Assembly (NCBI RefSeq): GCF_024298765.1
Contig: NZ_CP101210.1
Reading direction: 5' to 3' (one strand)
DNA: 64,000 bases
Source: Escherichia coli
GTDB taxonomy: Bacteria > Pseudomonadota > Gammaproteobacteria > Enterobacterales > Enterobacteriaceae
Shown: in pieces, positions 1 to 49,174 of the stretch
Layout: each line of letters opens with the position of its first letter
Position numbering within the stretch: position 1 is the stretch's first letter
Translations under genes and position numbers: made by a program
Notes under the pieces: model-generated
What the model was told of the DNA's origin: nothing
Database searches by the model: none
Seen by the model: only the letters and a program-made list of their open reading frames with translations

Positions 1-88
1 AGTTTTGGTACAACAAGTCTAGCCAGTTTACTAAAGTTCAACCTATGCCTCAGCTTAGTAATTCCACAAGGCTCATTGACGAAATAAT

Positions 89-1534
89 ATGTCAAATAGG
101 TGTGCTTCTATGAATGAGCCAGCTAATCGTACAGTAAATAATTTGAGAAAGAGCGGAGACCTGCAAGGGGCTTGGGAGTTTGGTTTTCAAGCGTTGCAGG
201 CAGCTCCCCAAGATACTTACTTGAAAGGTGCTTTATTTTGGGTGTGTTATGAGTTTCTTAAGCACCAGCTTGAAAATCTAAATAAGCGAGCGAGTTCTTC
301 AAACAACTATCGTCCTACTGATTTTGAATTTGAGCAAATAGAGAACTTGCTGCAAACCATAGTAAATTTAGATATTGCTACTGGCGGCCTAGAGTACAAA
401 ATGCTGCTGGTTCAGTTTAAGAAGAGTTTGGAATGGTTTCCAACCTTGATTCACCTTGTGCTTCGACATCAAACTGTACTATTTGATGATGAGGCTAAAA
501 CACCTTTTCAAGCTGAAAAAGGTGAAGTGCCAAGTTTGATGCTCTCAACAGCACGCCAAGTGGCGAGTGCATGGCTTAGAGCACGAGAGTATTGGCATCT
601 AGATCTTAACCAAGTGATGGCATTTATTAACCAAACACGCGAGCAAGCCTCTGACACTAAACATATGATGTGGCTTGATTACGACCAAGCGAAGTGCCTT
701 GTTGTTGCGGGCCAATACGATCAGGCTCGCGAACTCATTCTACCCATTTTAAGAAAGAAGCAAAAAGAGTCTTGGGCTTGGGGAGCGTTGGCTGCTACTT
801 ATTCAAAACAAGATCAGCGTTTAGCAATGAAGTTTTTTGCTAGGGGAATAGTATCCGCACATGACGTTACTTTTAGTTTACGTTTATTACAGGGAATTAT
901 TCCTTTATTACTTGCAAATCAACAGCAAGCTGAAGCCTCAATGTGCCTAAAAACGGCTATTGCGGCTTATCAAGCCCATGGGTGGAAGCTAAAGCAAGAG
1001 CTAGAACAGCTATCTATGCAGGCTTGGTATGATTCTGGTGTCGATGAGAAGCAACTGAGTCCTTTTTTAAACTCTATTTCTCACGACGCTTTAAATTACT
1101 TGCATGGGCCGATGGAGAAGGTTGTTGCTATCGTAGAGAATATCCATAAATCCGGTAAAGGCTTTCAAGTATTCGTAAATAAGTCGACATCACTATCAGT
1201 TCGCATGGGGGTTCATAAAGGTAAGCAGAAACCTCAGGCTGGTGACTATGTCGAGCTATCCGTAGCGAGTGTTGATGGAAACAAAGAAGTAGTAGCTTCC
1301 TCATCGTCCAAGCAAGTAGATATGGCTGATGTTTCGTATGTAGAGGGTACGCTTCGAATAGCACCCAAAGGCTTCGGATTTGTCGAGGATACTTTTGTTC
1401 CTCCCTTTGTTATAGGTAATTTAAAAAATGAAACAAAAGTCAGAGCACTCCGTATCATGAGTTGGGACAAATCTAAAGCTCGCCACAACTGGAAAGCGAT
1501 TAAGTTAACGGAACTAAATTTTAATGAAGACTAA
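89..1534 (+). CDS. hypothetical protein, 481 aa, with C-terminal cold-shock/OB-fold-like segment
   Basis: Long ORF with RBS-compatible context. C-terminal segment contains a KGFGFV motif resembling the cold-shock domain KGFGFI signature, preceded by a second beta-rich segment. No enzymatic motif recognised. Confidence 0.5.
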   Translation: MSNRCASMNEPANRTVNNLRKSGDLQGAWEFGFQALQAAPQDTYLKGALFWVCYEFLKHQLENLNKRASSSNNYRPTDFEFEQIENLLQTIVNLDIATGGLEYKMLLVQFKKSLEWFPTLIHLVLRHQTVLFDDEAKTPFQAEKGEVPSLMLSTARQVASAWLRAREYWHLDLNQVMAFINQTREQASDTKHMMWLDYDQAKCLVVAGQYDQARELILPILRKKQKESWAWGALAATYSKQDQRLAMKFFARGIVSAHDVTFSLRLLQGIIPLLLANQQQAEASMCLKTAIAAYQAHGWKLKQELEQLSMQAWYDSGVDEKQLSPFLNSISHDALNYLHGPMEKVVAIVENIHKSGKGFQVFVNKSTSLSVRMGVHKGKQKPQAGDYVELSVASVDGNKEVVASSSSKQVDMADVSYVEGTLRIAPKGFGFVEDTFVPPFVIGNLKNETKVRALRIMSWDKSKARHNWKAIKLTELNFNED

Positions 1535-1591
1535 GTCACTTTCCGGCGAAATCGAGTTAGGACAGGCTCAAGAATTAGCCGAGGTCGAATA

Positions 1592-1688
1592 ATGGCAACC
1601 CGAGTAGAAATGATTATCGAAACGCTCAAGGCGAACCCCGACAAGAAGTTTACTGCTCGGGACTTAGCCAAAGAATTTGTGCTTCGAT
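1592..1688 (+). pseudogene. 5' fragment of an ORF (MATRVEMIIETLKANPDKKFTARDLAKEFV...) truncated by the IS903 insertion
   Basis: ATG at 1592 preceded by GAGG, 58 bp after the stop of the 481-aa ORF. Reading frame runs directly into the IS903 left inverted repeat at 1689. No continuation recognisable after the IS. Confidence 0.4.
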
Positions 1689-2745
1689 GGCTTTGTTGAA
1701 TAAATCGAACTTTTGCTGAGTTGAAGGATCAGATCACGCATCTTCCCGACAACGCAGACCGTTCCGTGGCAAAGCAAAAGTTCAAAATCACCAACTGGCC
1801 CACCTACAATAAAGCCCTCATCAACCGTGGCTCCATAACTTTCTGGCTGGATGATGAAGCTATTCAGGCCTGGTATGAGTCAGCAACACCTTCTTCACGA
1901 GGCAGACCTCAGCGCTATTCTGACCTTGCCATCACGACTGTGCTGGTCATTAAACGCGTATTCAGGCTGACCCTGCGCGCTGCGCAGGGCTTTATTGATT
2001 CCATTTTTTCTCTGATGAACGTTCCGCTACGCTGCCCGGATTACAGCTGTGTCAGCAGGCGGGCAAAGTCGGTTAATGTCAGTTTCAAAACGCCCACCCG
2101 GGGTGAAATCGCACATCTGGTGATTGATTCCACCGGGCTGAAGGTCTTCGGTGAAGGCGAGTGGAAAGTCAAAAAGCATGGCCAGGAACGCCGCCGTATC
2201 TGGCGTAAGCTGCATCTCGCCGTTGACAGTAAAACACATGAAATCATCTGTGCAGACCTGTCGCTGAACAACGTTACGGACTCAGAGGCCTTCCCCGGGT
2301 TAATCCGGCAAACCCACCGGAAAATCAGGTCAGCCGCCGCCGATGGCGCTTACGATACCCGGCTATGTCACGATGAACTGCGGCGTAAGAAAATCAGCGC
2401 GCTTATCCCTCCCCGAAAAGGTGCGGGTTACTGGCCCGGTGAATATGCAGACCGTAACCGTGCAGTGGCTAATCAGCGAATGACCGGGAGTAATGCGCGG
2501 TGGAAATGGACAACAGATTACAACCGTCGCTCGATAGCGGAAACGGCGATGTACCGGGTAAAACAGCTGTTCGGGGGGGCACTGACGCTGCGTGACTACG
2601 ATGGTCAGGTTGCGGAGGCTATGGCCCTGGTACGAGCGCTGAACAAAATGACGAAAGCAGGTATACCTGAAAGCGTGCGTATTGCCTGAAAACACAACCC
2701 GCTACGGGGGAGACTTACCCGAAATCTGATTTATTCAACAAAGCC
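1689..2745 (+). mobile_element. IS903 (IS5 family), complete 1057-bp element
   Basis: Terminal inverted repeats GGCTTTGTTGAATAAATC at 1689 and its reverse complement ending at 2745. Internal transposase ORF. No 9-bp target duplication in flanks (TGCTTCGAT vs GTTGCCAAA), suggesting an adjacent deletion. Confidence 0.9.
1721..2689 (+). CDS. IS903 transposase
   Basis: Translation (MKDQITHLPDNADRSVAKQKFKITNWPTYNKALINRGS...) is the IS903/IS5-family DDE transposase as recalled. Confidence 0.9.
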   Translation: MKDQITHLPDNADRSVAKQKFKITNWPTYNKALINRGSITFWLDDEAIQAWYESATPSSRGRPQRYSDLAITTVLVIKRVFRLTLRAAQGFIDSIFSLMNVPLRCPDYSCVSRRAKSVNVSFKTPTRGEIAHLVIDSTGLKVFGEGEWKVKKHGQERRRIWRKLHLAVDSKTHEIICADLSLNNVTDSEAFPGLIRQTHRKIRSAAADGAYDTRLCHDELRRKKISALIPPRKGAGYWPGEYADRNRAVANQRMTGSNARWKWTTDYNRRSIAETAMYRVKQLFGGALTLRDYDGQVAEAMALVRALNKMTKAGIPESVRIA

Positions 2746-3282
2746 GTTGCCAAACCTGAAATAACACTTAGCTGTGATGATTCGCTATTACCTACCGATG
2801 GCTTCGGAAAACATAAATTAAAAATGCCCAGAGGAGTACTATTATCGTTAGCATTACCCGAACGCCGTATTAACGGTTATTTATTGGTAAGAGCTACGTT
2901 CCATGGCAAGAGTTCATCAACAGGTTGGAAGGCCATTCCGGCAAAACTCTCAGTATATGGCGCAGATACCATTCAGACAGCAGGTCCCGCTCAGCCCGTA
3001 CAGTAGAGCGCCGTTCACTACCGTAATCGCTACCGAAGAACACATTGATTGCCCCTCAATAATCCTGCTGTTAACATCAAAATTGTTGGTCGGGCTCGAT
3101 TTATTTAATTGTGTAAACAGGGTCTCTCAGAGAAAGGCCCTTATGCATCACCTGACGTTAAAAGTCACTACACCCAAGATGACGTTCAAAGTGTCATAGT
3201 CCCCTGCGCTGAGGACAAAGCCACACGTTAACGACAAATCCACGCGATAACTTACGATAGTTCGGACATAAGCCCCCATAAT

Positions 3283-3846
3283 TCAGTTATGTCGTGGTCG
3301 GCCGCGGTTACTTTTTTCGGGAAGCCTGCTACGGCCCAGAATAATACCGTGTTCTTTCTGATCTTGTTTAGCCAGATAGCTAAGGGCGTAACGTAAGTCG
3401 TCTACCGCAGACTTATCACTATAGTGAATCACGTGATCGATACGCACCGGGTATTTATCTTTAGCCCGGCACAGGTGAAAATAACCCTCCCCTTCCGTGA
3501 TCCGCCTCCAGATATCCCCCAGTTGCCTGGATATCTGATAAGAGTTCTTGTGACGTTGCCCATCCAGATAGCCGATAAAATGAATATGAAGCCCTTTGTC
3601 TGGTGTATATTCCATAACCCAGTAATATCCTGCCAACATCGTCTGGGTTTCGCTAAGTAAACGGTATATTTCCATACACATACTGTGCTTACAGGAATGC
3701 CCGAAACTGGGCGTGTCTTTCCTGTAGGCAAAATCAATTCTGAAAGGTAACAGTTTAGAAAAACGTTGAAACAATCCCTCCATGTGTTCATTCACATCTT
3801 TCAGAATCGCGAAATTCATTTCGTAATTGGGATTGGCATTATACAT
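3283..3846 (-). CDS. YagK/YfjJ-family (inovirus Gp2-like) prophage protein
   Basis: 187-aa ORF whose sequence resembles the YagK/YfjJ family found in CP4-type cryptic prophages. Sits in the same order as in CP4-57 (alpA, yfjI, yfjJ). Confidence 0.5.
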   Translation of the reverse strand: MYNANPNYEMNFAILKDVNEHMEGLFQRFSKLLPFRIDFAYRKDTPSFGHSCKHSMCMEIYRLLSETQTMLAGYYWVMEYTPDKGLHIHFIGYLDGQRHKNSYQISRQLGDIWRRITEGEGYFHLCRAKDKYPVRIDHVIHYSDKSAVDDLRYALSYLAKQDQKEHGIILGRSRLPEKSNRGRPRHN

Positions 3847-4735
3847 TTTATAGTCCTTACTTTATAAAATTCACAGGAAGAGGGAATTACGTAAATACTG
3901 AGAGTACATAAACGCCGTACCACGGCATTAATAAACGAGGTAACCAGCAGTACAGACAACCTGATAAAACTGTTTTGTATTACCGCATCGCTGTAACAAG
4001 GTAATACTTCAGAATTCAGTGAGGCTCTCTTAAACAGAGGACCAGTAATAATTACAATGGCAAAAACACACCTCAATATAATTGAATTTAAGAAAGCACC
4101 ATTCAATCACTTACAGGAAGTAATCTGATCTTCACAAAAGTCAGCTATCGAATAGCCACAGGCAACACCGCTATTGATACCCCACACACCATAAGAAGAT
4201 TATTCCATACAGAAAAAATTATATTTACCCATACTTATAAACTGTAACGGAGCTATGACGTACGAACTAAAGACACTACACTCTAATAGAGTTCTGGTAC
4301 CTAACCAGTGTTAAATACGAACCAGACATACATTCTATGGATTAATTTTCTCAATATTACGCTATGAGTGTAGTAACATAATTTACACCACATACACCAC
4401 CACACTGTAGTTAGTATATGGGGAGACATTACGATAAAAAGAGATAAGTTATACCACAGATACCACCACACAATACCATAACTCCCATTAATAATACTAA
4501 TTAACCTAAATTATTTATTGAATACGAAAACAATGAAGGTCCCACCTCACCTCAGACTAAAGCCGACAATATCCTGAGCAACACTCTATCCAATAGTAAA
4601 TAGTGGTTACACCAGTTATATTTACTGACTGACCTGTACCAGAGTTTTCTAATACAACAACGCTGACATGGTAAAGGCATTAGTCTCCTCCGCAAGTAGC
4701 AGAGGAGACTATATGTTACTCAACGATTAAGTCGT

Positions 4736-6187
4736 TCAGAGGTCAAAGTTAGGTGCGACACACAACGTTTTTCCCTCAATAACCGGTACAACTCTGTTTT
4801 GTTCATACAGTAAATCCAGTAACCAGTTGATTTTATCCTTTTTCCGGAAACGGTTCGGACCACGCTGTAAAATATCATTTTTTTTCATACAGGGGATCCC
4901 CTTCTCAATGCAATAGCTTTTTATCCAGTTGAAAAGTTCAAGCTCCTCTGGAATGAGTCGCACAGGTACGGTCAGGGCAGGGTTGTCAAAAGTTAACGGA
5001 TTAGACAACCGCACATACTCATTACCGTACCATATTGCTAATTCTCTCGCCATTTCTGCAGTGTAAGGGGAAATGTCCCCCTCTTCACCGCTCGAATGGT
5101 GAATAAGTCCTGCCAGTCTTGCCATATACTCTGCATTTTTAGCAGCATATTCCCGGCAATGTCTTAAAGGCCCCAATCCCCCCAGCTTCGATTCCACATC
5201 GTTGTAATAATCCGTCCAGATTCTGGCAGCCTGAGGAGAAAAGTGAAGGCAACGTCGTTCACCACTCATCGCCAGATTTTCATCAATAAGCTCATTGATC
5301 CTCTGTTCAAACAAATCCTGATACTGTGATGAATAATTATCTCCGGTTATTATCCTTGTCCCCTGCGTTGATGTTGGTTGACACATCAAAAACCTTGCAT
5401 GATGTCCTGACGTTTTCACAAGTTCTTTTTTTCGCGTACAAAAACCTTTCTGGTAAACATCAGGCTGAATCATCACCGATACCGTCAGTCTTGGATCCTT
5501 CAAAATAATTCCGGGAGATGATTTCCTGTCGATGAAAAGAGAACCACCATCCCACAAAGAGTTAAGTATTCCAAGTTTACTCATTGCCCGGCCATCAAAA
5601 ATTATTCCTCCTTCACTGGATACAAGAGCAAAAGAGCGATTGCTGTCGGAATAATATTTTAACATTCCCTCTATCGTTGTCTCATTGAAAATTGTCCGGC
5701 GTATCTGCGGCGGAACAGGACATTTATTCAGATGTCTTTTAAGCTCTGACTCTGTTGCCTTACAATCTTTACCGGCGCGAATTTCTTTATGCAATTTTGA
5801 CTCCAGTGCTTTTTGCTTTTGCTCCCATATTTCCTTTTCTGTACTGTAATTCTCAACCAGTTTCGCGTATTCTTCCGCCAGGGCTTCATCCCTGAGATAA
5901 AATGCTTTCATAAACACTTTATCCACGGTCGTTTTCCTTTCACCGGAATCAGCCAGAATCAGAGAGTAAAGATTAACAGGCCCACGTAAATTTCCAGGTC
6001 TGCACACGTCAATCTGATTCTGACAGGCACTTGAGAACGCTGTTAATGCGGATGTCGCCACCATAGCCAAAGGTGCCTGTGTATTTTTTTGAGTTTCAAT
6101 TATTGCATTTCTCACCAGCGGTGGTAGTGCATATACCGGATAAGGATTTTCTGGTGCAAGTAAGCACATAAAAGCCTCTCTTTTCAT
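4736..6187 (-). CDS. YfjI-like prophage protein
   Basis: 483-aa ORF immediately downstream of an AlpA-family gene in the canonical CP4-57-like order. Family assignment is by position and size recall only. Confidence 0.45.
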   Translation of the reverse strand: MKREAFMCLLAPENPYPVYALPPLVRNAIIETQKNTQAPLAMVATSALTAFSSACQNQIDVCRPGNLRGPVNLYSLILADSGERKTTVDKVFMKAFYLRDEALAEEYAKLVENYSTEKEIWEQKQKALESKLHKEIRAGKDCKATESELKRHLNKCPVPPQIRRTIFNETTIEGMLKYYSDSNRSFALVSSEGGIIFDGRAMSKLGILNSLWDGGSLFIDRKSSPGIILKDPRLTVSVMIQPDVYQKGFCTRKKELVKTSGHHARFLMCQPTSTQGTRIITGDNYSSQYQDLFEQRINELIDENLAMSGERRCLHFSPQAARIWTDYYNDVESKLGGLGPLRHCREYAAKNAEYMARLAGLIHHSSGEEGDISPYTAEMARELAIWYGNEYVRLSNPLTFDNPALTVPVRLIPEELELFNWIKSYCIEKGIPCMKKNDILQRGPNRFRKKDKINWLLDLLYEQNRVVPVIEGKTLCVAPNFDL

Positions 6188-6417
6188 TAATGGGTTAGTA
6201 AAGCAGCAGCAACTCCCGCTATAATAGCGAAATAGCTGCTGTTCAGACCTAATGTTCTGAGAAATACAGAATATCTGTAGATCTGATGTTTAATAAACCG
6301 ATAAGGTTAATTCAGTTCATACTGTGTTATTTACCACGAAATATCATTCATGTTTCTCATTCTTAACACCTCCTAAAATTATTTCACTAACACCTTCCCC
6401 CCGGTCTTTTTCCTTTC

Positions 6418-6645
6418 TCAGGAATCAGCCAGAACCATAGTGTAAATATTAACAGGCCCACGTAAATTTCCAGGTCTGCACACGTCAATCTGATTCTGAC
6501 AGGCAATTGACATCGCTGTTAATAATGATGTGGTAGTCATAGCCAGAGATGCTTTTTCATTGTGTTGAGTTTCAATTATTGCATTTCCAGTCATTGATGG
6601 TTGCGCATATACTGGATACGGAGTATCCGGTTTGATGTAAGACAT
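6418..6645 (-). pseudogene. truncated duplicate of the 5' end of the YfjI-like gene
   Basis: 75-aa ORF whose sequence (PYPVYA...NAIIETQ...ACQNQIDVCRPGNLRGPVN...LADS) parallels residues 14-82 of the 483-aa ORF. DNA 6400-6650 is about 80 percent identical to 5935-6190. Confidence 0.6.
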
Positions 6646-6750
6646 AAATATTTCCTTTTTTCGTAATAACTTTCGGTTATAGCAGCTATTTCCGCTACAA
6701 TAGCAACAATAGCTGCTATACAGACTGGATATACTGAAAATACAGACAGT

Positions 6751-6999
6751 TCATCTGGTCTGTATCCAGCAAAGAAGGTCACTTAACAACCATCCGCAAG
6801 ATTTCTTTCCGATAGACTTACGTGGTGGAAATTTTCCCTCCCGTTCAAGTTTCCACGCTTGTGTACGAGAAATTGACGTGATCTCATATCGTTCCTTTTC
6901 ACGTACCAGTCTGTCGCATTCAATCCCATAAGCTTTCAAAATGACCAGACGCTGTTCATCTGTTAATGGAAGCCACATACTACCCTCCTGATATATCAA
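6751..6999 (-). CDS. alpA: AlpA-family phage transcriptional regulator
   Basis: Small ORF with AlpA-like HTH segment (ITSISRTQAWKLEREGKFPPRKSIGKKSCGWLLSDLLCWIQTR). True start probably the internal Met (MWLPL). Confidence 0.6.
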   Translation of the reverse strand: MIYQEGSMWLPLTDEQRLVILKAYGIECDRLVREKERYEITSISRTQAWKLEREGKFPPRKSIGKKSCGWLLSDLLCWIQTR

Positions 7000-7669
7000 T
7001 ACTTTTTATTTCCGGCATGAGCATGAAATGACTAAGTTTCCCGGATAAACAATGAGTGAAAGTCACTATCATTCATCCAGTCAACGCCTTGCAAATAAAA
7101 TGTAATACTATGATTTTTATAGGTCAAAATACTAAATTACAATGTTAAAATGGCTTTTAACAGAAAAAATAAAGACATATGGAACCAAATAAAAACAAGC
7201 CACGACCAATAAAAACAAAAGATTAATATTAAAAATCCATTATGACGATTTTTGTTGACTAAAATTAGGTTGGGATATATAAATAAATCCATGTAAAATT
7301 CAAACAAGGCATAGAGGAGCCGCAGGAAGGTGAAATATTTCCATCTAATTTGTGATAATCATCACAAAAATAAGCTACAACAAGCGGAGGAAAAGACAAT
7401 CTGTTGCTGAACAGACAGAAGCAGGCTACGAATGATCGGAAAATGAAGCAAATACGCTTATACAGAAGACGCAGAGGTAACTGACGGAGACAATCACAAT
7501 CAGGAGAAAATTATCGTAAATAATGTATAAAATCTCAGGATATAAACAAATGTACACAAGCTATCCACGTAATCAGCGGCTGGCTCAGGATTGACGTTTC
7601 ATTTCAGTGGACAACATCGATTCTGTCTGACAGCGGACCAATATGTAGCAAGCAGAAACTTCTGACATC

Positions 7670-9307
7670 ATGGTAACTCGGACAATGCAACAAAAGTATC
7701 AGTATGATCGTGTTTTATCCGGCGAACTCCACCCATTCCCTGGCATATACGAGGCGGTTTCCGAACAAATCCTTTTGCTCATTTTTAAAGCACGTCAACT
7801 ATATCAGGATCCAGAATATCGCCCCTGGTTTGAAGAACAGCACAGAGTACTCTCTGCATTACGTGCCAATACAGAGCTCCTGAGAATCTTTAGAGAACAA
7901 AGAAGCGCTGAAGAACCAAAGCTTACTATTGAAGAGTCTACCTCCCCCCAACCCACTCCTTCTGCTCTTACAGATGCGCTTAATGTGATGTGCCATTTAT
8001 ACAATGGTTTTGATGAAGGAAATATCAGTCTGAAAACCTGGGGGGCGATGCAAGAGGTACAGACAACATCAACCTTTATCAGCCCAGGACCGAGAACCTG
8101 GAAAACACCTGAACTGGCAAAGTTTGTAGGAGATGATTTATTTAATATTCTGACTGAATGTAAGGCCTGGAGTTCACCAATTCCAGCAGAAACCCGACAG
8201 GGGTATTGCCATCAGGATCTGTCTGTTGCACACTCCTGCACCTCAGAGTTACTGGCACACCTGAATCAATATCATGAAATTGATGAATCAGCAATACTTG
8301 CCAGAGTTATTGGTATAACAGTTAACGGATTCTACAAGAAAAATAATACAGACCTTCCAGAATGGCTATCCCCCTTTAAAGAGGAACATAAAATATTCAA
8401 AGATTGTCCGGAGCAAAATACCGGGGATGTAATCAGACGGAAAGAACAACTGTTGAAAACAGGACGTACAGAATTCGTGAATAATTTGTGTCGGGTCGCC
8501 AACTGGTATGAAATTGAGTCAATATACGATGAATACGTCCGTCTTTATGCCAATGAAATCATTGACTGGTTCAACAAAACCATGAAGTATTTTAAACCAA
8601 CAGATTTTATCCGATATACATGGAAATTCGCAACAGTTACTCCGGATAAAGATACAGAAACCGGGCATACAACTGCATGGGAAAAGGATTATTGCCAGAT
8701 AACCATACAACGTGATGAACTTCTGAGGTTGATTCACACTAATACCCTTCAGGATGCTGTAATTTATCTTTGTCATTGTCTGCAGGAGAAATACAAGAAA
8801 TCATCCCAGAATGAGACAGAGTTTCCAGGAATAAAACCTCCGGCATCAGAGAGTGAAATTAATATAACAGATAATTTTGAATTTCATTCTCTTCTGGAGC
8901 TAAGTAAAGATAATGAGAAGCGGCTGGAAACATTTCAAAAATGGTATGAAAAAAATAAAGTTTTGTTAGAAAGTCATAAACAAAAACGAACAGAGAAGAT
9001 TGACGTTGCCGTACGACTTGTAGGGCTGAAAGCCTATGATCTGCATGAAGGGATTCCGGATAGTCCAAAACGAAAAGTTAAAGATGGCATAAATGAAGAC
9101 ATCAAAGCCGATACCAGTTTACGCCTGTCAAAGACAAATATAAGTGATACGTCGCTAAACCGTTATCGCCGCACTGTTAAGGAGATTATCAATAACGAAA
9201 TCGACGCATTCCTGTTGGAACAGAAGAAAAAAAATAAAAGATTTCCCTACAGTGAAGATAGAGATGTGATTCGCCCTTTATGGGGAAAATGCCTGACCGG
9301 GCAGTAG
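7670..9307 (+). CDS. hypothetical protein, 545 aa, AT-rich, no recognisable motif
   Basis: Long uninterrupted ORF in AT-rich DNA preceded by about 650 bp of AT-rich non-coding sequence. No Walker, HTH or catalytic motif recognised. Confidence 0.5.
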   Translation: MVTRTMQQKYQYDRVLSGELHPFPGIYEAVSEQILLLIFKARQLYQDPEYRPWFEEQHRVLSALRANTELLRIFREQRSAEEPKLTIEESTSPQPTPSALTDALNVMCHLYNGFDEGNISLKTWGAMQEVQTTSTFISPGPRTWKTPELAKFVGDDLFNILTECKAWSSPIPAETRQGYCHQDLSVAHSCTSELLAHLNQYHEIDESAILARVIGITVNGFYKKNNTDLPEWLSPFKEEHKIFKDCPEQNTGDVIRRKEQLLKTGRTEFVNNLCRVANWYEIESIYDEYVRLYANEIIDWFNKTMKYFKPTDFIRYTWKFATVTPDKDTETGHTTAWEKDYCQITIQRDELLRLIHTNTLQDAVIYLCHCLQEKYKKSSQNETEFPGIKPPASESEINITDNFEFHSLLELSKDNEKRLETFQKWYEKNKVLLESHKQKRTEKIDVAVRLVGLKAYDLHEGIPDSPKRKVKDGINEDIKADTSLRLSKTNISDTSLNRYRRTVKEIINNEIDAFLLEQKKKNKRFPYSEDRDVIRPLWGKCLTGQ

Positions 9308-9393
9308 ATCACAGATGGGATAACATCCCGGTTATCCCCTGTTTGTTCTGCTTCAGGTTGCCGGAGCTCCAGGAACACGAGGCAATCGGCAAA

Positions 9394-9990
9394 TTATGCG
9401 GCTTTTCCATTAACAGATTCGGCCACAAGAACAACACCGTGTTTGTTTCGATCAGGATGTTCACTCCAGATTTCTGATTCAGGAATACTTTCCCCATCAT
9501 AGCAGATCCGATCACCATCAAACGAATAATACCGTGCGGAATCTGTATCTAAGATAAACACCTTAAAATTCGTTGAACGACGCGCTATATGCTGCCAGAG
9601 GGCTTTACCTCCTTCATATTGCTCGTTATCACTTAATAGTATAACGCCTGCTTTTGTGGCTATTGTTTCATAAACAAACGTAGCAAGGCTAACATCACGT
9701 ACAGCGCCATCGACAACAATCCCTTCAATCTGAGCAACGTCCTGTTCTTCCCAGAATTTCCGGACAAACACCCCTTCAAGCTGTGAACGACGCTGAAGCT
9801 CCAGAGTGGCAACAACCTTATGGCGAATATCACCATCAATAACAGAAGGTGCAGCTTCGATTACCGCAGCGAACGGAGTCTTTGGATCCCAGATGATCTG
9901 GTAAAGCACACCCTGAATAGTTACTCCATCCAGTATCGAAAAACGACGAGCTACAGTAGCAGGGGAGTAAGACATTGGAATGACAGCCAT
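9394..9990 (-). CDS. hypothetical protein, 198 aa
   Basis: ORF convergent with the 545-aa gene, located between it and thrW where an island integrase would be expected. No family recognised. Confidence 0.45.
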   Translation of the reverse strand: MAVIPMSYSPATVARRFSILDGVTIQGVLYQIIWDPKTPFAAVIEAAPSVIDGDIRHKVVATLELQRRSQLEGVFVRKFWEEQDVAQIEGIVVDGAVRDVSLATFVYETIATKAGVILLSDNEQYEGGKALWQHIARRSTNFKVFILDTDSARYYSFDGDRICYDGESIPESEIWSEHPDRNKHGVVLVAESVNGKAA

Positions 9991-10300
9991 TTTATGGCCT
10001 AAAATTTGAAAACATCAGTATCAATACTGACCTCATCAGTCTGAGCATATATTGATAAAGTTTTTATGTTTACACTCAATAAATACCTTGCCAAACAACT
10101 AATAGCGATGTCTACATTGCCATTCGACATGCTTACAATTTTTGTCAACAAGAAAGTGAATTTATATCAACGGTAAGAAGTAAACACGAGGACACCAAAA
10201 CCAAATGTACACACTTTTGTGCTTTGTGTCCCCTGTGTGTACCCAAATGACAAACTGCAAGAAAATCTAGGCACACACTTATCTAACTTATTGATTTAAA

Positions 10301-10376
10301 TGGTGCCGATAATAGGAGTCGAACCTACGACCTTCGCATTACGAATGCGCTGCTCTACCAACTGAGCTATATCGGC
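10301..10376 (-). tRNA. thrW: tRNA-Thr (anticodon CGT)
   Basis: Reverse complement reads GCCGATATAGCTCAGTTGGTAGAGCAGCGCATTCGTAATGCG...TTCGACTCCTATTATCGGCACCA: cloverleaf with CGT anticodon and encoded CCA. Position next to proA matches thrW. Confidence 0.95.
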
Positions 10377-10490
10377 CCTGAAAGGACATGTTCACGAACG
10401 TGAATCACGGTGGACAAGGTTAAAACTAACCGGGCGATGCGTCAATGGCCTTGTGAATCAAATGGCTACTTTTGCATCACCCGGTTTTAT

Positions 10491-11744
10491 TTACGCACGA
10501 ATGGTGTAATCACCAATGCCGATCCACTTATAAGTGGTCAGTGCTTCCAGCCCCATTGGGCCGCGCGCGTGGAGTTTTTGTGTGCTTACCGCAACTTCCG
10601 CCCCCAGTCCAAACTGGCCGCCGTCGGTAAAACGCGTAGAGGCGTTAACGTAAACAGCGGAGGAATCCACTTCGTTAACAAAACGCTGGGCGTTGCGCAT
10701 ATCGCGGGTCAGGATCGCATCGGAGTGTTGCGTGCCGTGTTCACGAATATGGGCGATGGCATCGTCAAGATCGCTAACGATTTTGACGTTCAAATCTAAT
10801 GACAGAAACTCATCGTCATACTCTTCGGCTTTAACCGCCACCACCTTCGCGGGGCCTGTCTGCAACTGCGCCAGTGCACCTGCATCAGCGTGTAACGTCA
10901 CGCCACTTTCCGCCATTTGTTTGCTTAATGCGGGCAGGAAACTATCGGCGATGTTTTTATTCACCAGCAACGTTTCAACCGTATTACATGTGCTCGGTCG
11001 CTGAGTTTTCGCGTTGACGATCACTTTCAGGGCTTCAGCGATCTCTGCACTTTCATCAACGTAAATATGGCATACGCCTATACCACCTGTGATCACCGGG
11101 ATCGTCGACTGTTCGCGGCACAGTTTATGCAGGCCAGCGCCACCGCGCGGGATCAGCATGTCGATGTATTTATCCATACGCAGCATTTCACTGACCAGCG
11201 CGCGGTCAGGATTATCAATCGCCTGCACGGCACCCGCCGGTAAGCTGCAGGATTTCAGGGCGTCCTGAATCACCGCTACCGTTGCAGCGTTAGTGCGACA
11301 GGTTTCTTTGCCGCCGCGCAGGATCACCGCGTTACCGGTTTTCAGGCACAGGGAAGCAACATCAACCGTCACGTTCGGGCGCGCTTCATAAATCACGCCA
11401 ATCACCCCCAGCGGCACGCGACGGCGCTCCAGACGCAGGCCGCTGTCCAGTACGCCGCCATCGATTACCTGCCCCACCGGATCGGCGAGATTGCACACCT
11501 GGCGCACATCGTCGGCAATGCCTTTCAGCCGTGCGGGCGTCAGTGCCAGACGGTCAAGCATCGCTTCGCTAAGGCCATTGGCACGCGCGTCTGCAACATC
11601 CTGCGCGTTAGCGTTGAGGATACTTTCGCTTTGTGCTTCCAGTTCATCGGCGATTTTTTCCAGCACACGATTTTTTTCGCGGCTGGAGAGTTGCGCTAAT
11701 TTATACGAGGCTTGCTTCGCGGCAATGCCCATTTGTTCCAGCAT
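10491..11744 (-). CDS. proA: gamma-glutamyl phosphate reductase
   Basis: 417-aa translation matches ProA. Synteny with proB. Confidence 0.95.
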
Positions 11745-11755
11745 CGGCCAGCTCC

Positions 11756-12859
11756 TTAACGGGTAATCATGTCATCACGGTGAACGGCAACCGGGCCGTA
11801 TTCATATCCCAGTATTGCATCAATTTCTTGCGAGTGGTGTCCGGCAATACGGCGTAATGCATCGCTGTTGTAACGACTGACGCCGTGGGCGATATCGCGA
11901 CCTTCGAGGTTGCAAATACGGATGACTTCACCACGCGAGAAATTGCCAGTCACGCTTTTAATGCCTTTCGGCAACAGGGAGCTGCCGCGTTCCAGAATGG
12001 CGGCAGTTGCCCCTTCATCTACCGTGATTTCACCCGCAGGCGGCGCACCGAAAATCCAGCGTTTACGGTTTTCAAGCGGAGTCGCCTGGGCATGGAACAG
12101 CGTACCGACGGAAATGCCTTCCATCACATCACCAATAACGCCCGGCTTGCTGCCCGCGGCAATAATGGTGTCGATACCCGCACGGCAAGCCACGTCAGCG
12201 GCCTGCAATTTGGTGCTCATACCGCCAGTTCCGAGGCCTGAAACGCTATCACCGGCAATCGCGCGCAGTGCGTCATCAATGCCGTACACATCTTTAATCA
12301 GTTCTGCCTGCGGATTGCTGCGCGGGTCAGCGGTATACAAACCTTTTTGATCGGTCAGCAGCAACAGTTTATCGGCACCCGCCAGAATCGCCGCCAGCGC
12401 AGAAAGGTTATCGTTATCACCGACCTTAATCTCTGCAGTAGCGACAGCATCGTTCTCATTAATTACCGGAACGATATTGTTATCGAGCAACGCACGCAGG
12501 GTATCGCGGGCGTTCAGGAAGCGTTCACGATCTTCCATATCAGCACGGGTCAGCAACATCTGCCCGACATGAATGCCGTAAATTGAAAACAGCTGTTCCC
12601 ACAGTTGAATCAGTCGACTCTGCCCTACCGCCGCCAGCAGCTGTTTTGAAGCGATAGTCGCCGGCAATTCCGGGTACCCCAGGTGCTCACGTCCGGCGGC
12701 AATCGCACCCGACGTCACAATAACAATCCGATGCCCGGCGGCATGTAACTGCGCGCACTGGCGAACAAGTTCAACGATATGGGCACGGTTCAGGCGGCGC
12801 GATCCGCCTGTTAGCACACTGGTGCCGAGTTTTACCACCAGCGTCTGGCTGTCACTCAT
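11756..12859 (-). CDS. proB: glutamate 5-kinase
   Basis: Translation from [16 protein letters not shown] matches ProB. The track ORF extends 13 codons upstream of the likely start. Confidence 0.95.
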
Positions 12860-13048
12860 GATTCTCTGCCATTCAATTTTAGGAAAAAATGATATCAAAC
12901 GAACGTTTTAGCAGGACTGTCGTCGGTTGCCAACCATCTGCGAGCAAAGCATGGCGTTTTGTTGCGCGGGATCAGCAAGCGTAGCGGCAGTTGTTTACGC
13001 TTTTATTACAGATTTAATAAATTACCACATTTTAAGAATATTATTAAT

Positions 13049-13067
13049 CTGTAATATATCTTTAACA
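13049..13067 (+). promoter_or_regulatory. putative Pho box upstream of phoE
   Basis: CTGTAATATATCTTTAACA about 80 bp upstream of the phoE start resembles the PhoB-box direct repeat (CTGTCATA-type). Confidence 0.45.
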
Positions 13068-13147
13068 ATCTCAGGTTAAAAACTTTCCTGTTTTCAACGG
13101 GACTCTCCCGCTGAATATTCGCGCGTTAATTAAAATCAGGAATGAAA

Positions 13148-14203
13148 ATGAAAAAGAGCACTCTGGCATTAGTGGTGATGGGCATTGTGGCATCTGTATC
13201 CGTACAGGCCGCAGAAATATATAACAAAGACGGTAATAAACTGGATGTCTATGGCAAAGTTAAAGCCATGCATTATATGAGTGATAATGACAGTAAAGAT
13301 GGCGACCAGAGTTATATCCGTTTTGGTTTTAAAGGCGAAACACAAATTAACGATCAACTGACTGGTTATGGTCGTTGGGAAGCTGAGTTTGCCGGTAATA
13401 AAGCGGAGAGTGATACTGCACAGCAAAAAACGCGTCTCGCTTTTGCCGGGTTGAAATATAAAGATTTGGGTTCTTTCGATTATGGTCGTAACCTGGGCGC
13501 GTTGTATGACGTGGAAGCCTGGACCGATATGTTCCCGGAATTTGGTGGCGACTCCTCGGCGCAGACCGACAACTTTATGACCAAACGCGCCAGCGGTCTG
13601 GCGACGTATCGGAACACCGACTTCTTCGGCGTTATCGATGGCCTGAACTTAACCCTGCAATATCAAGGGAAAAACGAAAACCGCGACGTTAAAAAGCAAA
13701 ACGGCGATGGCTTCGGCACGTCATTGACATATGACTTTGGTGGCAGCGATTTCGCCATCAGTGGAGCCTATACCAACTCTGATCGTACCAACGAGCAGAA
13801 CCTGCAAAGCCGTGGCACAGGCAAGCGTGCAGAAGCATGGGCAACAGGTCTGAAATACGATGCCAATAATATTTATCTGGCAACTTTCTATTCTGAAACA
13901 CGTAAAATGACGCCAATCTCTGGCGGCTTTGCCAATAAGACGCAGAACTTTGAAGCGGTCGCTCAATACCAGTTTGACTTTGGTCTGCGTCCATCGCTGG
14001 GTTATGTCTTATCGAAAGGGAAAGATATTGAGGGCATCGGTGATGAAGATCTGGTCAATTATGTCGATGTTGGTGCTACGTATTATTTCAACAAAAATAT
14101 GTCAGCGTTTGTTGATTATAAAATCAACCAACTGGATAGCGATAACAAATTGAATATTAATAATGATGATATTGTCGCGGTTGGCATGACCTATCAGTTT
14201 TAA
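13148..14203 (+). CDS. phoE: outer membrane phosphoporin PhoE
   Basis: Translation ([21 protein letters not shown] signal peptide, porin body ending MTYQF) matches PhoE. Confidence 0.95.
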
Positions 14204-48840: not shown

Positions 48841-49174
48841 GGGCAAATCCACTTCTATAAATAATACTAATTAACCTTTATTATTTTTTAATGGTACATG
48901 AACTGTTTTTAGCTGTAACGATAAACAAATCGCCCAAAACGAAAAATACTGGTTATCATTGCTCAGAAAACTCGTACGAGTGGCAGCTTCCCCCCTGAGC
49001 AATGCTTCATTTTCGGTGGTTCTGTGTGATAGAGTTATGCTGACTACAGTGGCAGTAACACTACTTTCCACCACACGAGGATAAAACCAGTCAAAAAATC
49101 AATTATATGAATTAAAAGTATTTTTTATGAAATGTTATGCATATCAACCAGTATGATTAACAGAAAATTTCATC

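What the first reader, a model, noticed from the sequence alone, without database searches (positions are those of the whole stretch)
3847..4735. About 890 bp of AT-rich, strand-biased non-coding DNA between YagK-like and YfjI-like genes
No ORF longer than about 30 codons is present. The plus strand is A/C-rich with recurrent CACCACA and ACACCA motifs, and a perfect hairpin GTCTCCTC-N11-GAGGAGAC lies at 4683-4710 just past the YfjI-like stop. This is long for an intergenic region and could hold an ncRNA, a degraded gene, or a silenced regulatory region.
Basis: seen in the sequence. Interest (0 to 1): 0.3.

Follow-up and report, generated by a model that had tools for sequence, protein, structure and literature searches.

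The report
Conserved DNA box upstream of yagK
The long AT-rich gap between two genes of a cryptic E. coli island drifts like neutral spacer, except for a 43-bp box that stays almost unchanged upstream of the same Rep-like gene in five or more bacterial genera. That box is the best candidate for the island's replication origin or control site.

Summary
Window 3847-4735 is an 889-bp, 36% G+C, strand-skewed gap between a yagK-like gene and a yfjI-like (DUF3987) gene, both on the minus strand. A strong hairpin lies 26 nt past the yfjI stop.

Versions of 785-1012 bp occur in about 1570 of 5426 complete E. coli genomes and are never annotated. I found no Rfam match, no protein-family remnant and no unusual folding outside the hairpin. 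Most of the gap diverges at the rate of the neighbouring genes' third codon positions. The CACCACA motifs come from one 28-nt duplication in the most indel-prone part.

One piece stands out. A 43-bp box (4477-4519, minus strand, core AGGTTAATTAGTATTAT) is the only distal upstream sequence shared with diverged yagK-family genes in E. coli, Citrobacter, Erwinia, Yersinia and Limnobaculum. It is always co-oriented with the gene. Mean identity is 77% for the box, 27% for its flanks and 60% for the gene.

YagK-like proteins carry HUH and YxxK motifs, a Rep-like predicted fold and an RGRPR tail that resembles an AT-hook. My best reading is that the box is the site where this Rep-like protein acts, as origin and/or operator. 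A plain promoter-operator is the main rival. Function is untested.

The parts
3847..4735 (.). The whole non-coding interval between yagK-like and yfjI-like. It is composite: a yagK-linked part (3847 to about 4530) and a yfjI-linked part (about 4530 to 4735).
   Evidence: ORF list. Found in 1570 of 5426 E. coli genomes and never annotated. 33 distinct variants of 785-1012 bp. In locus L010 the part up to about 4530 stays next to yagK without yfjI.
4477..4519 (-). Conserved 'yagK box'. The minus strand reads CAATAAATAATTTAGGTTAATTAGTATTATTAATGGGAGTTAT. The invariant core is GGTTAnTTAnTnTTAT.
   Evidence: It is the only distal segment alignable with upstream regions of diverged yagK genes. Present 147-266 nt upstream of the ATG in Erwinia, Citrobacter, Yersinia (two species) and a metagenome contig, 953 nt upstream in Limnobaculum, and 595-1176 nt upstream in E. 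coli types. The nhmmer profile finds one hit per module, E = 2.9e-9 here. Identity is .77 for the box.27 for its flanks and .60 for the CDS.
4378..4471 (.). Imperfect 28-nt direct duplication (4378-4405 and 4444-4471) that carries the CACCACA/ACCACA motifs. It lies just yagK-ward of the box.
   Evidence: the repeat finder family D1. This is the most variable and most often deleted part (majority frequency .67-.70, gaps 25-29%). Pairwise identity is .855 at 4327-4406. No tandem periodicity.
3847..4326 (-). yagK-proximal stretch (possibly an untranslated leader) that travels with yagK. Overall it evolves at about the synonymous rate.
   Evidence: Pairwise identity is .914, against .90 for yagK third codon positions. 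No folding signal. No protein-family remnant.
3847..3900 (-). Translation-initiation region of yagK-like. SD AAGGA lies at 3858-3854, a CTTCCT anti-SD remnant at 3880-3875, and an ATTTACG motif at about 3892-3886. About 55 nt are homologous to the diverged L016-type modules.
   Evidence: BLAST homology extends about 55 nt upstream of the ATG. Related families have an SD-sequestering hairpin with compensatory changes. In the window type it is weak (dG -4, z +0.7).
3980..4006 (.). Inverted repeat ATTACC-N-GGTAAT, about 135-160 nt upstream of the yagK ATG. The outer 6 bp are kept in all 33 variants, and the repeat is a near-perfect 12-14-bp palindrome in some.
   Evidence: Alignment A1 and variant table. 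Function not tested.
4681..4711 (-). Stem-loop at the 3' end of the yfjI-like gene. On the minus-strand RNA it forms 13 pairs including one G.U, with a 5-nt loop. No U-tract follows it.
   Evidence: the repeat finder pair I7. z = -4 to -5.4. dG = -23.9 kcal/mol on the minus-strand RNA, with at least 10 bp kept in all variants. The terminator scan did not call it.
3283..3846 (-). yagK-like gene (187 aa), predicted HUH Rep-like protein with a C-terminal RGRPR tail.
4736..6187 (-). yfjI-like gene (483 aa, DUF3987).
   Evidence: Pfam DUF3987, E = 1.5e-85. RefSeq 'YfjI family protein'. DUF3987 is one of two Pfam families used to define the PICMI satellite primase, whose deletion lowers satellite copy number (PMC10803314).
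6751..6978 (-). alpA-like regulator gene at the head of the module.
   Evidence: Pfam Phage_AlpA, E = 1.3e-13. Annotation.

Best explanation
The interval is the non-coding spacer inside the alpA - yfjI(DUF3987) - spacer - yagK(HUH) module of a tRNA-integrated CP4/P4-like, satellite-like island.

Most of it is fast-evolving AT-rich DNA. That includes a yfjI 3' trailer with an RNA stem-loop, an indel-prone repeat patch, and a 480-bp stretch that travels with yagK.

The one element under clear selection is the 43-bp box at 4477-4519. I propose that the neighbouring YagK-type Rep-like protein acts on this box. In this model the C-terminal RGRPR tail (resembling an AT-hook) docks on the AATTAA/TTAATTA tracts. 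The HUH/Tyr active site then nicks within or next to the invariant core. The box would thus serve as the double-strand origin for rolling-circle-type replication of the excised island. It probably overlaps the yagK promoter, so the same binding could also autoregulate the gene.

Shown here: the conservation, orientation and specificity of the box; the HUH and Tyr motifs and the Rep-like predicted fold of YagK; and the linkage of the box to yagK rather than to yfjI.

Inferred only: binding, nicking and origin function.
For: 1. Phylogenetic footprint. Across 8 families (28 pairs) the box is 77% identical, the 35 nt on either side are 27% (random level), and the yagK CDS is 60%.

2. Linkage and orientation. 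The box is always upstream of and co-oriented with a yagK-family gene, whatever lies on the other side: yfjI, a divergent RHH-like gene, a 607-627 aa gene, or other unrelated genes.

3. Specificity. The box HMM finds one hit per module. It finds none in about 73 kb of other E. coli DNA, and only one further site in the 64-kb window, at 48849-48888, itself an IS-truncated remnant of a second yagK-type module. It finds none upstream of K-12 yagK or yfjJ.

5. RGRPR is nearly invariant in box-bearing families. It is absent from K-12 YagK and YfjJ, which lack the box.

6. A conserved core next to element-specific repeats is, from memory, the layout of dso regions in pT181- and pMV158-type plasmids. 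The L016-type modules have about eight 13-nt tandem repeats right after the box (autocorrelation .5 at lags 13, 26 and 39).

7. In the window type the box lies 3' of the DUF3987 gene, where, as I recall, SaPI/PICI origins lie relative to pri-rep. The PICMI primase, defined by DUF3987 or DUF5906 hits, supports replication of that satellite, and its concatemer pattern was read as rolling-circle-like (PMC10803314).
Against: No stable or conserved hairpin or cruciform surrounds the box, although nick sites of many HUH Reps sit in hairpin loops.

The window type has no regular iteron array. Its repeats are the least conserved part.

No shared k-mer is significantly enriched downstream of the box across genera.

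The box matches no plasmid or phage origin in the collections searched. All matches outside E. coli were at noise level.

The fixed position of about 150 nt upstream of the ATG in compact modules fits a promoter or operator equally well. Where the upstream gene is divergent, a promoter must lie somewhere in that region.

Many of these islands are IS-ridden remnants, including this one, so current function in this strain is doubtful.
Confidence: 0.4

Rival explanations
1. The box is simply the promoter-operator of the yagK operon, controlled by a conserved regulator such as AlpA or by H-NS/Hha. The 600 nt between it and yagK would then be a long untranslated leader. No replication role.
For: Fixed orientation, and a position of 147-266 nt upstream of the ATG in compact modules.

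TATTAT (5 of 6 matches to the -10 consensus) is kept in 13 of 15 families. TTAATT-N17/18-TAnnnT is present in most E. coli types.

In Erwinia, Yersinia and others the upstream gene is divergent. The promoter must therefore lie in that 350-620-nt region, where the box is the only conserved distal element.

yagK is followed by alpA in those genera. An hha gene sits between box and yagK in one E. coli type.

A DUF3296 (YagK/YfjJ-family) gene of EAEC 042 responds to Aar/H-NS (PMC5570504). I did not verify that it is this locus.
Against: The consensus scan calls no minus-strand promoter here.

PWM scores at the box are low (1-6 bits, ranks 4-266, never the best).

With TATTAT as -10, the -35 hexamer matches 0-4 of 6.

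Seventeen nearly invariant contiguous bases across proteins only 43-58% identical is more than a sigma-70 promoter needs.
Confidence: 0.3
2. The interval is a theta-type, iteron-plus-AT-rich origin served by the upstream YfjI (DUF3987 primase/helicase-like) protein, as in P4 ori or SaPI/PICI ori located 3' of pri-rep.
For: In the window type it lies immediately 3' of the DUF3987 gene. It is AT-rich and has direct repeats. The PICMI primase, defined by DUF3987 or DUF5906 hits, is needed for efficient satellite replication (PMC10803314).
Against: The box travels with yagK, not with yfjI. L010 keeps it without yfjI. Erwinia and Yersinia modules have no DUF3987 gene within 3 kb.

K-12 yfjI is followed by only 152 bp with no box.

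The repeats are variable or deleted and not periodic.
Confidence: 0.1
3. The interval has no function. It is neutral AT-rich filler and IS/indel debris, and the box is kept only as a hitch-hiking or recombination-junction sequence.
For: The bulk diverges at the synonymous rate of its neighbours (.914 vs .90, and .964 vs .97). It has many indels. IS elements insert next to the box.
Against: Neutral drift cannot keep 35 nt at 77% identity while both flanks fall to 27% and the gene to 60%. Nor can it keep the box co-oriented with yagK in five genera.
Confidence: 0.08
4. The interval encodes a non-coding RNA, either a small RNA or a structured leader.
For: Strand-skewed composition. A strong hairpin at 4681-4711 pairs better on the minus-strand RNA. 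Related families have a conserved SD-sequestering leader hairpin.
Against: No Rfam match. Folding z-scores are within +/-2 everywhere except at the yfjI 3' hairpin. The box has no conserved structure. The leader hairpin is degenerate in this variant.
Confidence: 0.06
5. The interval is a decayed protein-coding gene, for example an hha-like gene, which occupies the equivalent place in a related module.
For: Its length is that of a small gene or two. Related L015/L080 modules have hha between box and yagK. Stop-to-stop frames reach up to 86 codons.
Against: Six-frame translations hit nothing in Pfam (which includes the Hha family) or PHROGs at E up to 1. No DNA similarity to the hha-containing region outside the box. 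ORF lengths are not conserved.
Confidence: 0.05

Closest known systems
Double-strand origins of rolling-circle replicons (pT181, pMV158 and pC194 plasmid families; the Ff phage intergenic region upstream of gene II)
   Same: A non-coding region sits just upstream of an HUH-type initiator gene. A short core is more conserved than the initiator itself and lies next to element-specific repeats. The region is AT-rich. The comparison with named plasmids and Ff rests on my own knowledge.
   Different: No hairpin holds the core. There is no sequence match to any plasmid or phage origin searched. The element is chromosomal and integrase-borne. Nicking is not shown.
Origins of phage satellites: SaPI/PICI ori 3' of pri-rep, P4 ori/crr, PICMI
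   Same: It sits in an int-alpA-primase-type backbone next to a DUF3987 gene. DUF3987 is one of two Pfam families used to define the PICMI primase, which supports replication, and PICMIs also have large non-coding regions (PMC10803314). Islands with AlpA plus Rep-like HUH genes have been proposed to be satellite-like (10.1101/2025.09.15.676423). A Pseudomonas island family with an 'inovirus Gp2-like' core gene is transduced by a jumbo phage (10.1101/2024.08.29.610337).
   Different: The conserved box follows yagK, not the DUF3987 gene. The window type has no regular iterons. No packaging or capsid genes were examined here.
Sigma-70 promoter with an operator in the -35/spacer region
   Same: Upstream, co-oriented, about 150 nt from the ATG in compact modules. 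It has a conserved TATTAT and a partial dyad, AATTAA-GG-TTAATT.
   Different: Weak or absent -35 and low PWM scores. No transcription-start data.
Intrinsic terminators (for the 4681-4711 hairpin only)
   Same: A G+C-rich 13-bp stem-loop lies 26 nt after a stop codon and is stable on the transcribed strand.
   Different: No U-tract follows it, and the scan did not call it. It is more likely a 3'-end stabiliser or a weak terminator.

Membership tests
Rolling-circle double-strand origin (dso) served by an HUH initiator | An adjacent gene encodes an HUH endonuclease with a catalytic Tyr | tested here: met
Rolling-circle double-strand origin (dso) served by an HUH initiator | A short core is conserved among related replicons and flanked by divergent specificity repeats | tested here: met
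   Box .77, flanks .27, CDS .60. 13-nt tandem repeats follow the box in the L016 type. The window type has different, irregular repeats.
Rolling-circle double-strand origin (dso) served by an HUH initiator | The nick site is presented in the loop of a conserved hairpin or cruciform | tested here: not met
   DNA folding of the box +/-30-50 nt in 17 families gives -1 to -7 kcal/mol and inconsistent structures.
Rolling-circle double-strand origin (dso) served by an HUH initiator | Site-specific nicking and origin activity | not testable with these tools
   Needs purified protein and replication assays.
Sigma-70 promoter/operator | -35 and -10 hexamers with a 16-18 bp spacer | tested here: inconclusive
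   No minus-strand call in the consensus scan. Weak PWM scores at the box. TATTAT is conserved but the -35 is poor.
Sigma-70 promoter/operator | A mapped transcription start | not testable with these tools
   No transcriptome data were available for this locus.
Iteron-type theta origin (P4 ori/crr, SaPI/PICI ori) | A regular array of iterons next to an AT-rich stretch | tested here: not met
   No periodicity in the window type (best autocorrelation .35). The repeats are a single 28-nt duplication in the most variable part.
Iteron-type theta origin (P4 ori/crr, SaPI/PICI ori) | Linkage to the primase/helicase gene | tested here: not met
   The box stays with yagK when yfjI is absent. K-12 yfjI has no box downstream.
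Known RNA family (Rfam 15) | Covariance-model match at or near the gathering score | tested here: not met
   Only two chance-level snoRNA hits (E = 1.4 and 9), both outside the interval proper.
Pseudogene / degraded gene | Residual similarity of some reading frame to a protein family | tested here: not met
   No Pfam or PHROG hit at E up to 1 in six frames.
Intrinsic terminator (hairpin 4681-4711) | G+C-rich stem followed by a U-tract | tested here: not met
   The stem is present. The tail AAUGCCUUUACC is not U-rich and was not called.
H-NS/Hha-silenced AT-rich island DNA | AT-rich relative to the genome, and bound by H-NS | not testable with these tools
   AT-richness is met. Binding is not testable. 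A DUF3296-family gene in EAEC 042 is Aar/H-NS-responsive (PMC5570504), but its identity with this locus was not verified.

The most novel reading that the evidence does not exclude
The 43-bp box is the nick/recognition site of a so-far undescribed family of rolling-circle origins. Under this reading, YagK-type HUH proteins with a C-terminal AT-hook use it to replicate CP4-like, tRNA-integrated pathogenicity, defence and satellite islands across Enterobacterales after excision. This would define the replicon of a very common but functionally opaque class of islands.

The identical 18-mer also occurs in the intergenic region of gokushovirus-like circular genomes whose Rep belongs to the same Pfam family. 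That could then reflect shared ancestry of origin and initiator.
Probability: 0.3. Interest if true: 0.65.

Novelty: new variant of a known kind. Interest (0 to 1): 0.45.

Why it matters
YagK/YfjJ-family genes and the alpA-yfjI-yagK backbone sit in a large share of E. coli genomes. The module matched in 2961 of 5426 complete genomes. They also occur in pathogenicity and defence islands of many enterobacteria, yet their role is unknown.

Recent work proposes that such islands are phage-satellite-like elements that replicate on their own. No cis-acting site has been pointed out for them.

A short, strongly conserved, gene-linked DNA box gives a concrete and cheap experimental handle through binding, nicking, origin and promoter assays. 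These could show how the islands replicate or switch on. The box could also serve as a sequence marker for finding and orienting such modules in genomes.

Tried and rejected
Rfam search at a permissive threshold: nothing.

Six-frame Pfam and PHROG scans: nothing.

Consensus promoter/terminator scan: only chance-level plus-strand hits.

My own sigma-70 PWM, and a test of the -35 position assuming TATTAT as -10: inconclusive.

Sliding-window fold z-scores on both strands: only the yfjI hairpin stands out.

DNA folding around the box in 17 families: no shared hairpin.

Lag autocorrelation for iterons: strong in the L016 type only.

k-mer enrichment downstream of the box: TATCAC and others do not exceed the null.

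GGTAAT and AGGTAA enrichment: none. ATTAC is enriched (z = 5.4), but only against a mononucleotide null and mainly in the long E. coli regions, so I did not rely on it.

BLAST of the interval and of the box against phages and plasmids: only E. coli records, the rest AT-rich noise.

Genome-contig scan with the YagK protein: only Escherichia, too narrow to help.

Full-text search for the box sequence in papers: none.

Papers on yfjI, yfjJ and yagK: nothing on this interval.

An attempt to find the O157 Sakai copy for transcriptome look-ups used wrong coordinates and was dropped.

A resemblance of TA(G/A)TATTAT to the CRESS/geminivirus nonanucleotide TA(G/A)TATTAC, and of K-12 yfjJ upstream CTTGATA to pC194/phiX174 nick sites, is recalled from memory. 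I treat both as leads only.

Full report
WHAT IS THERE. Window 3847-4735 is an 889-bp gap between two minus-strand ORFs. These are 3283..3846 (187 aa) and 4736..6187 (483 aa). The larger gene is a DUF3987/YfjI-family gene (Pfam E = 1.5e-85). The smaller is annotated in RefSeq as 'inovirus-type Gp2 protein' or 'YagK/YfjJ domain-containing protein'. An AlpA-family gene lies further upstream at 6751-6978. The gap has 33-39% G+C against 44-48% in the flanks and is strand-skewed, with A .38, C .22, G .15, T .26 on the plus strand.

GTCTCCTC lies at 4683-4690 and GAGGAGAC at 4702-4709, and the arms extend to 13 nt. 'No ORF above 30 codons' is true for ATG starts only. Mechanical TTG/GTG ORFs of 96, 56 and 47 aa exist on the minus strand, but they are neither conserved nor similar to any protein family. 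ACCACA occurs four times in 84 nt. All four copies stem from one imperfect 28-nt duplication, and the window-wide count is at chance.

WHERE IT OCCURS. The interval with its two genes (window 3283-6187) is 100% identical to E. coli 13P460A, where it sits in an IS-riddled island next to tRNA-Thr. Window 1-13735 is 99.3% identical to that genome, and the far end of the window is not collinear with it.

Similar intervals occur in 1570 of 5426 complete E. coli genomes and carry no annotation in any record listed. The three-part module matches in 2961 genomes. There is no match in phage records, and the only plasmid-collection matches are E. coli records. The closest YagK relatives in a species-representative genome set are all Escherichia. 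In E. coli K-12 CP4-57, yfjI and yfjJ are only 152 bp apart, so the long spacer belongs to a distinct module type.

From E. coli genomes and 58 metagenome contigs I collected 54 copies, giving 33 distinct sequences of 785-1012 bp. The metagenome contigs were fished with a 21-mer from 3953-3973, which biases conservation at that spot.

HOW IT EVOLVES. The interval is a mosaic.
- The yagK-side 480 bp (3847-4326) has a mean pairwise identity of .914. yagK third codon positions score .90.
- The yfjI-side 260 bp (4477-4735) scores .964. Third positions at the yfjI 3' end score .97.
- The middle (4327-4476) holds the CACCACA duplication. It is the least conserved part, with pairwise identity .855 at 4327-4406, and is missing in a quarter of the variants.

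Indels of 1, 8, 18 and 60-100 nt are common. In one genome (L010) the sequence up to about 4530 stays beside yagK while yfjI is replaced by another gene. So within E. coli the bulk of the interval behaves as nearly neutral DNA that hitch-hikes with whichever gene it adjoins. Rfam finds nothing. Folding z-scores stay within +/-2 on both strands except over the hairpin, where they reach -4 to -5.4.

THE EXCEPTION: A CONSERVED BOX. I compared the interval with the upstream regions of a second E. coli yagK type whose gene is 68% identical at the DNA level. Only two pieces aligned. One is the gene plus about 55 nt before its ATG. The other is a 50-nt block at window 4470-4519 (82-84% identity, E about 1e-7). 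Everything else was unalignable.

The same block turned up upstream of YagK homologues of 37-58% protein identity:

| Organism | Distance of the GGTTAATTA anchor from the ATG |
|---|---|
| Erwinia | 150 nt |
| Citrobacter | 266 nt |
| Yersinia enterocolitica | 150 nt |
| Y. intermedia | 159 nt |
| Soil metagenome contig | 184 nt |
| Limnobaculum | 953 nt |

More degenerate forms occur in Citrobacter braakii and Rouxiella, and perhaps in Klebsiella and Aeromonas. The box always has the orientation of the gene. The neighbour on the other side varies and the neighbours are mostly unrelated.

The consensus is AATTAAGGTTAATTA(G/A)TATTAT..(A/G)G(A/G)AGT, and GGTTAnTTAnTnTTAT is invariant in 15 families. 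Over 28 family pairs the 35-nt box is 77% identical, the 35 nt on either side 27%, and the coding sequence 60%. A profile of the box finds exactly one significant hit per module. It finds none upstream of K-12 yagK or yfjJ and none in about 73 kb of unrelated E. coli DNA. The 64-kb window holds a single extra copy at 48849-48888, which belongs to an IS-truncated module of the second type. This is a clear phylogenetic footprint and the main result.

The structural evidence is therefore consistent with an HUH Rep-like enzyme, and the sequence motifs carry most of the weight. K-12 YagK and YfjJ lack both the RGRPR tail and the box. Klebsiella, a second E. coli type and Aeromonas homologues keep a GRPR tail and have at best degenerate box-like sequences.

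MECHANISM. An active-looking HUH enzyme needs a DNA site, and the box is the only conserved non-coding sequence that travels with the gene. As I recall it, the pattern resembles the double-strand origins of pT181- and pMV158-type plasmids: a core more conserved than the protein, next to element-specific repeats. In the second E. coli type those repeats are a regular array of about eight 13-nt units. In the window they are an irregular duplication.

The module context fits a replication function.
- DUF3987 is one of two Pfam families used to define the PICMI satellite primase. Deleting that primase gene lowers satellite copy number (PMC10803314).
- AlpA-plus-Rep-like islands have been proposed to be satellite-like replicating elements (10.1101/2025.09.15.676423).
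- A Pseudomonas island family with a Gp2-like core gene is transduced by a jumbo phage (10.1101/2024.08.29.610337).

I therefore favour the reading that the box is the recognition/nick region of a rolling-circle-type origin, probably overlapping the yagK promoter (confidence 0.4).

The main rival is that it is only a promoter-operator (0.3). The fixed upstream position, the conserved TATTAT and the need for a promoter in that region argue for this. The poor -35, the low promoter scores and the unusually long invariant run argue for something more specific.

Against the origin reading, no conserved hairpin presents the site. The box resembles no origin in the plasmid and phage collections. The window's repeats are not conserved. 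Origin function served by YfjI is unlikely because the box follows yagK, not yfjI.

THE HAIRPIN. On the minus-strand RNA, the yfjI transcript, the stem forms 13 pairs including a G.U, with dG = -23.9 kcal/mol. On the plus strand the same position is a C.A mismatch. All variants keep at least 10 pairs. No U-tract follows and the terminator scan does not call it. It is best read as a 3'-end stem-loop of the yfjI mRNA, either a stabiliser or a weak terminator, and it belongs to the yfjI-linked part of the interval.

SIDE OBSERVATIONS. In nine yagK families the Shine-Dalgarno sequence is paired with an upstream complement. The sequences differ but stay complementary: CUUCCU/AGGAAG, AUCCU/AGGAU, GUUCCUC/GAGGAAC, CCAUGAA/UUCAUGG. 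The z-scores reach -3.8 in the clearest families, but two (Y. enterocolitica, Salmonella) are weak. In the window's variant this hairpin has decayed.

The identical 18-mer of the box also occurs in the intergenic region of about 4.1-kb circular gokushovirus-like contigs. Their Rep (VP4) is a solid member of Pfam REP_ORF2-G2P (E = 1.8e-22), the family that YagK proteins hit weakly. Three other IMG/VR hits look like chance in AT-rich phages, so this remains a lead only.

VERDICT. The interval as a whole is ordinary, near-neutral island spacer. It is not an ncRNA gene and not a recognisable pseudogene. Inside it lies a previously undescribed, strongly conserved 43-bp element tied to a Rep-like HUH gene family across Enterobacterales. 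Its function, origin and/or operator, is inferred and not shown.

Noticed in passing
window 48849-48888 (-), with an IS end at about 48852 and a gene start at about 49175 (+): A second copy of the box (exact 18-mer at 48860-48877). It belongs to the other E. coli module type. An IS3-family element has replaced the yagK side right at the edge of the box. About 290 nt away, a divergent gene begins MTTRITFNMTSDETLRIVDEY, which looks like a ribbon-helix-helix N-terminus.
   Followed up: partly
window 3847-3900; loci L016, L084, L085, L087, L088, L090-L093 just upstream of the yagK ATG: In nine yagK families the Shine-Dalgarno sequence is sequestered in a hairpin whose two arms change together between genera (z reaches -3.8 in the clearest families; two are weak). 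An AAAAATTAC(G/A) motif precedes it at about 45-50 nt before the ATG. In the window's variant the hairpin is degenerate (dG -4).
   Followed up: partly
window 3283-3300 (C-terminus of the yagK-like protein): A nearly invariant C-terminal RGRPR, resembling an AT-hook, in the box-bearing YagK families. K-12 YagK and YfjJ lack both the tail and the box.
   Followed up: partly
L016:5400-5530 (-), also L080 and L081 at about 3545-3660 (+): An array of about eight tandem 13-nt TGTAA-type repeats starts a few bases after the box in the second E. coli module type (autocorrelation .5 at lags 13, 26 and 39). It looks like iterons and is absent from the window's type.
   Followed up: partly
L015:4794-5006, L079:4173-4385, L080:4294-4443: In the second module type an hha (Hha/YmoA family) gene sits between the box and yagK. 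Two zinc-ribbon genes and further YagK/YfjJ paralogues follow yagK.
   Followed up: no
L100, L101 (17-34 and 4127-4144), L104: The 18-mer AAGGTTAATTAATATTAT occurs in the intergenic region of about 4.1-kb circular gokushovirus-like contigs. There it lies on the strand opposite to the genes. Their VP4 Rep is a firm member of Pfam REP_ORF2-G2P, the family that YagK proteins hit weakly. Three other IMG/VR hits look like chance.
   Followed up: partly
window 89-1534 (+); L004, L007, L010 and L011 just downstream of yagK: TOTE conflict-system genes accompany the module. In the window a TPR/DUF7017/S1CSD-TOTE-2 protein is separated from yagK by IS903B. In other genomes a TOTE archaeo-eukaryotic-primase gene follows yagK directly on the same strand.
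   Followed up: no
window 5898-6270 vs 6374-6746: A 380-nt internal repeat (78% identity). A partial duplicate of the yfjI 5' end lies between alpA and yfjI and is annotated in RefSeq as an incomplete DUF3987 pseudogene.
   Followed up: no
window 48852; L082:2765-3500; L078:4341-5038: IS elements (IS3-family, IS66, IS1) have inserted at or near the box, or between the box and yagK, in several genomes. The AT-rich region is an insertion hot spot.
   Followed up: no
window 3980-4006 and 3913-3925: An inverted repeat ATTACC-N-GGTAAT is kept in all 33 variants and is a near-perfect palindrome in some. A small GCCGT-ACC-ACGGC hairpin has one-sided changes that would be G.U pairs only on the plus-strand RNA.
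   Followed up: partly
L003:4470-4500 and L017:3120-3145 (K-12 yfjJ and yagK upstream regions): The two K-12 paralogues share a different upstream motif: GATAGGTAATATATAGG / GGATAGGTATTATATAATGG. In yfjJ, CTTGATA precedes it. From memory, CTTGATA is the pC194/phiX174-type nick sequence. I did not analyse this further.
   Followed up: no
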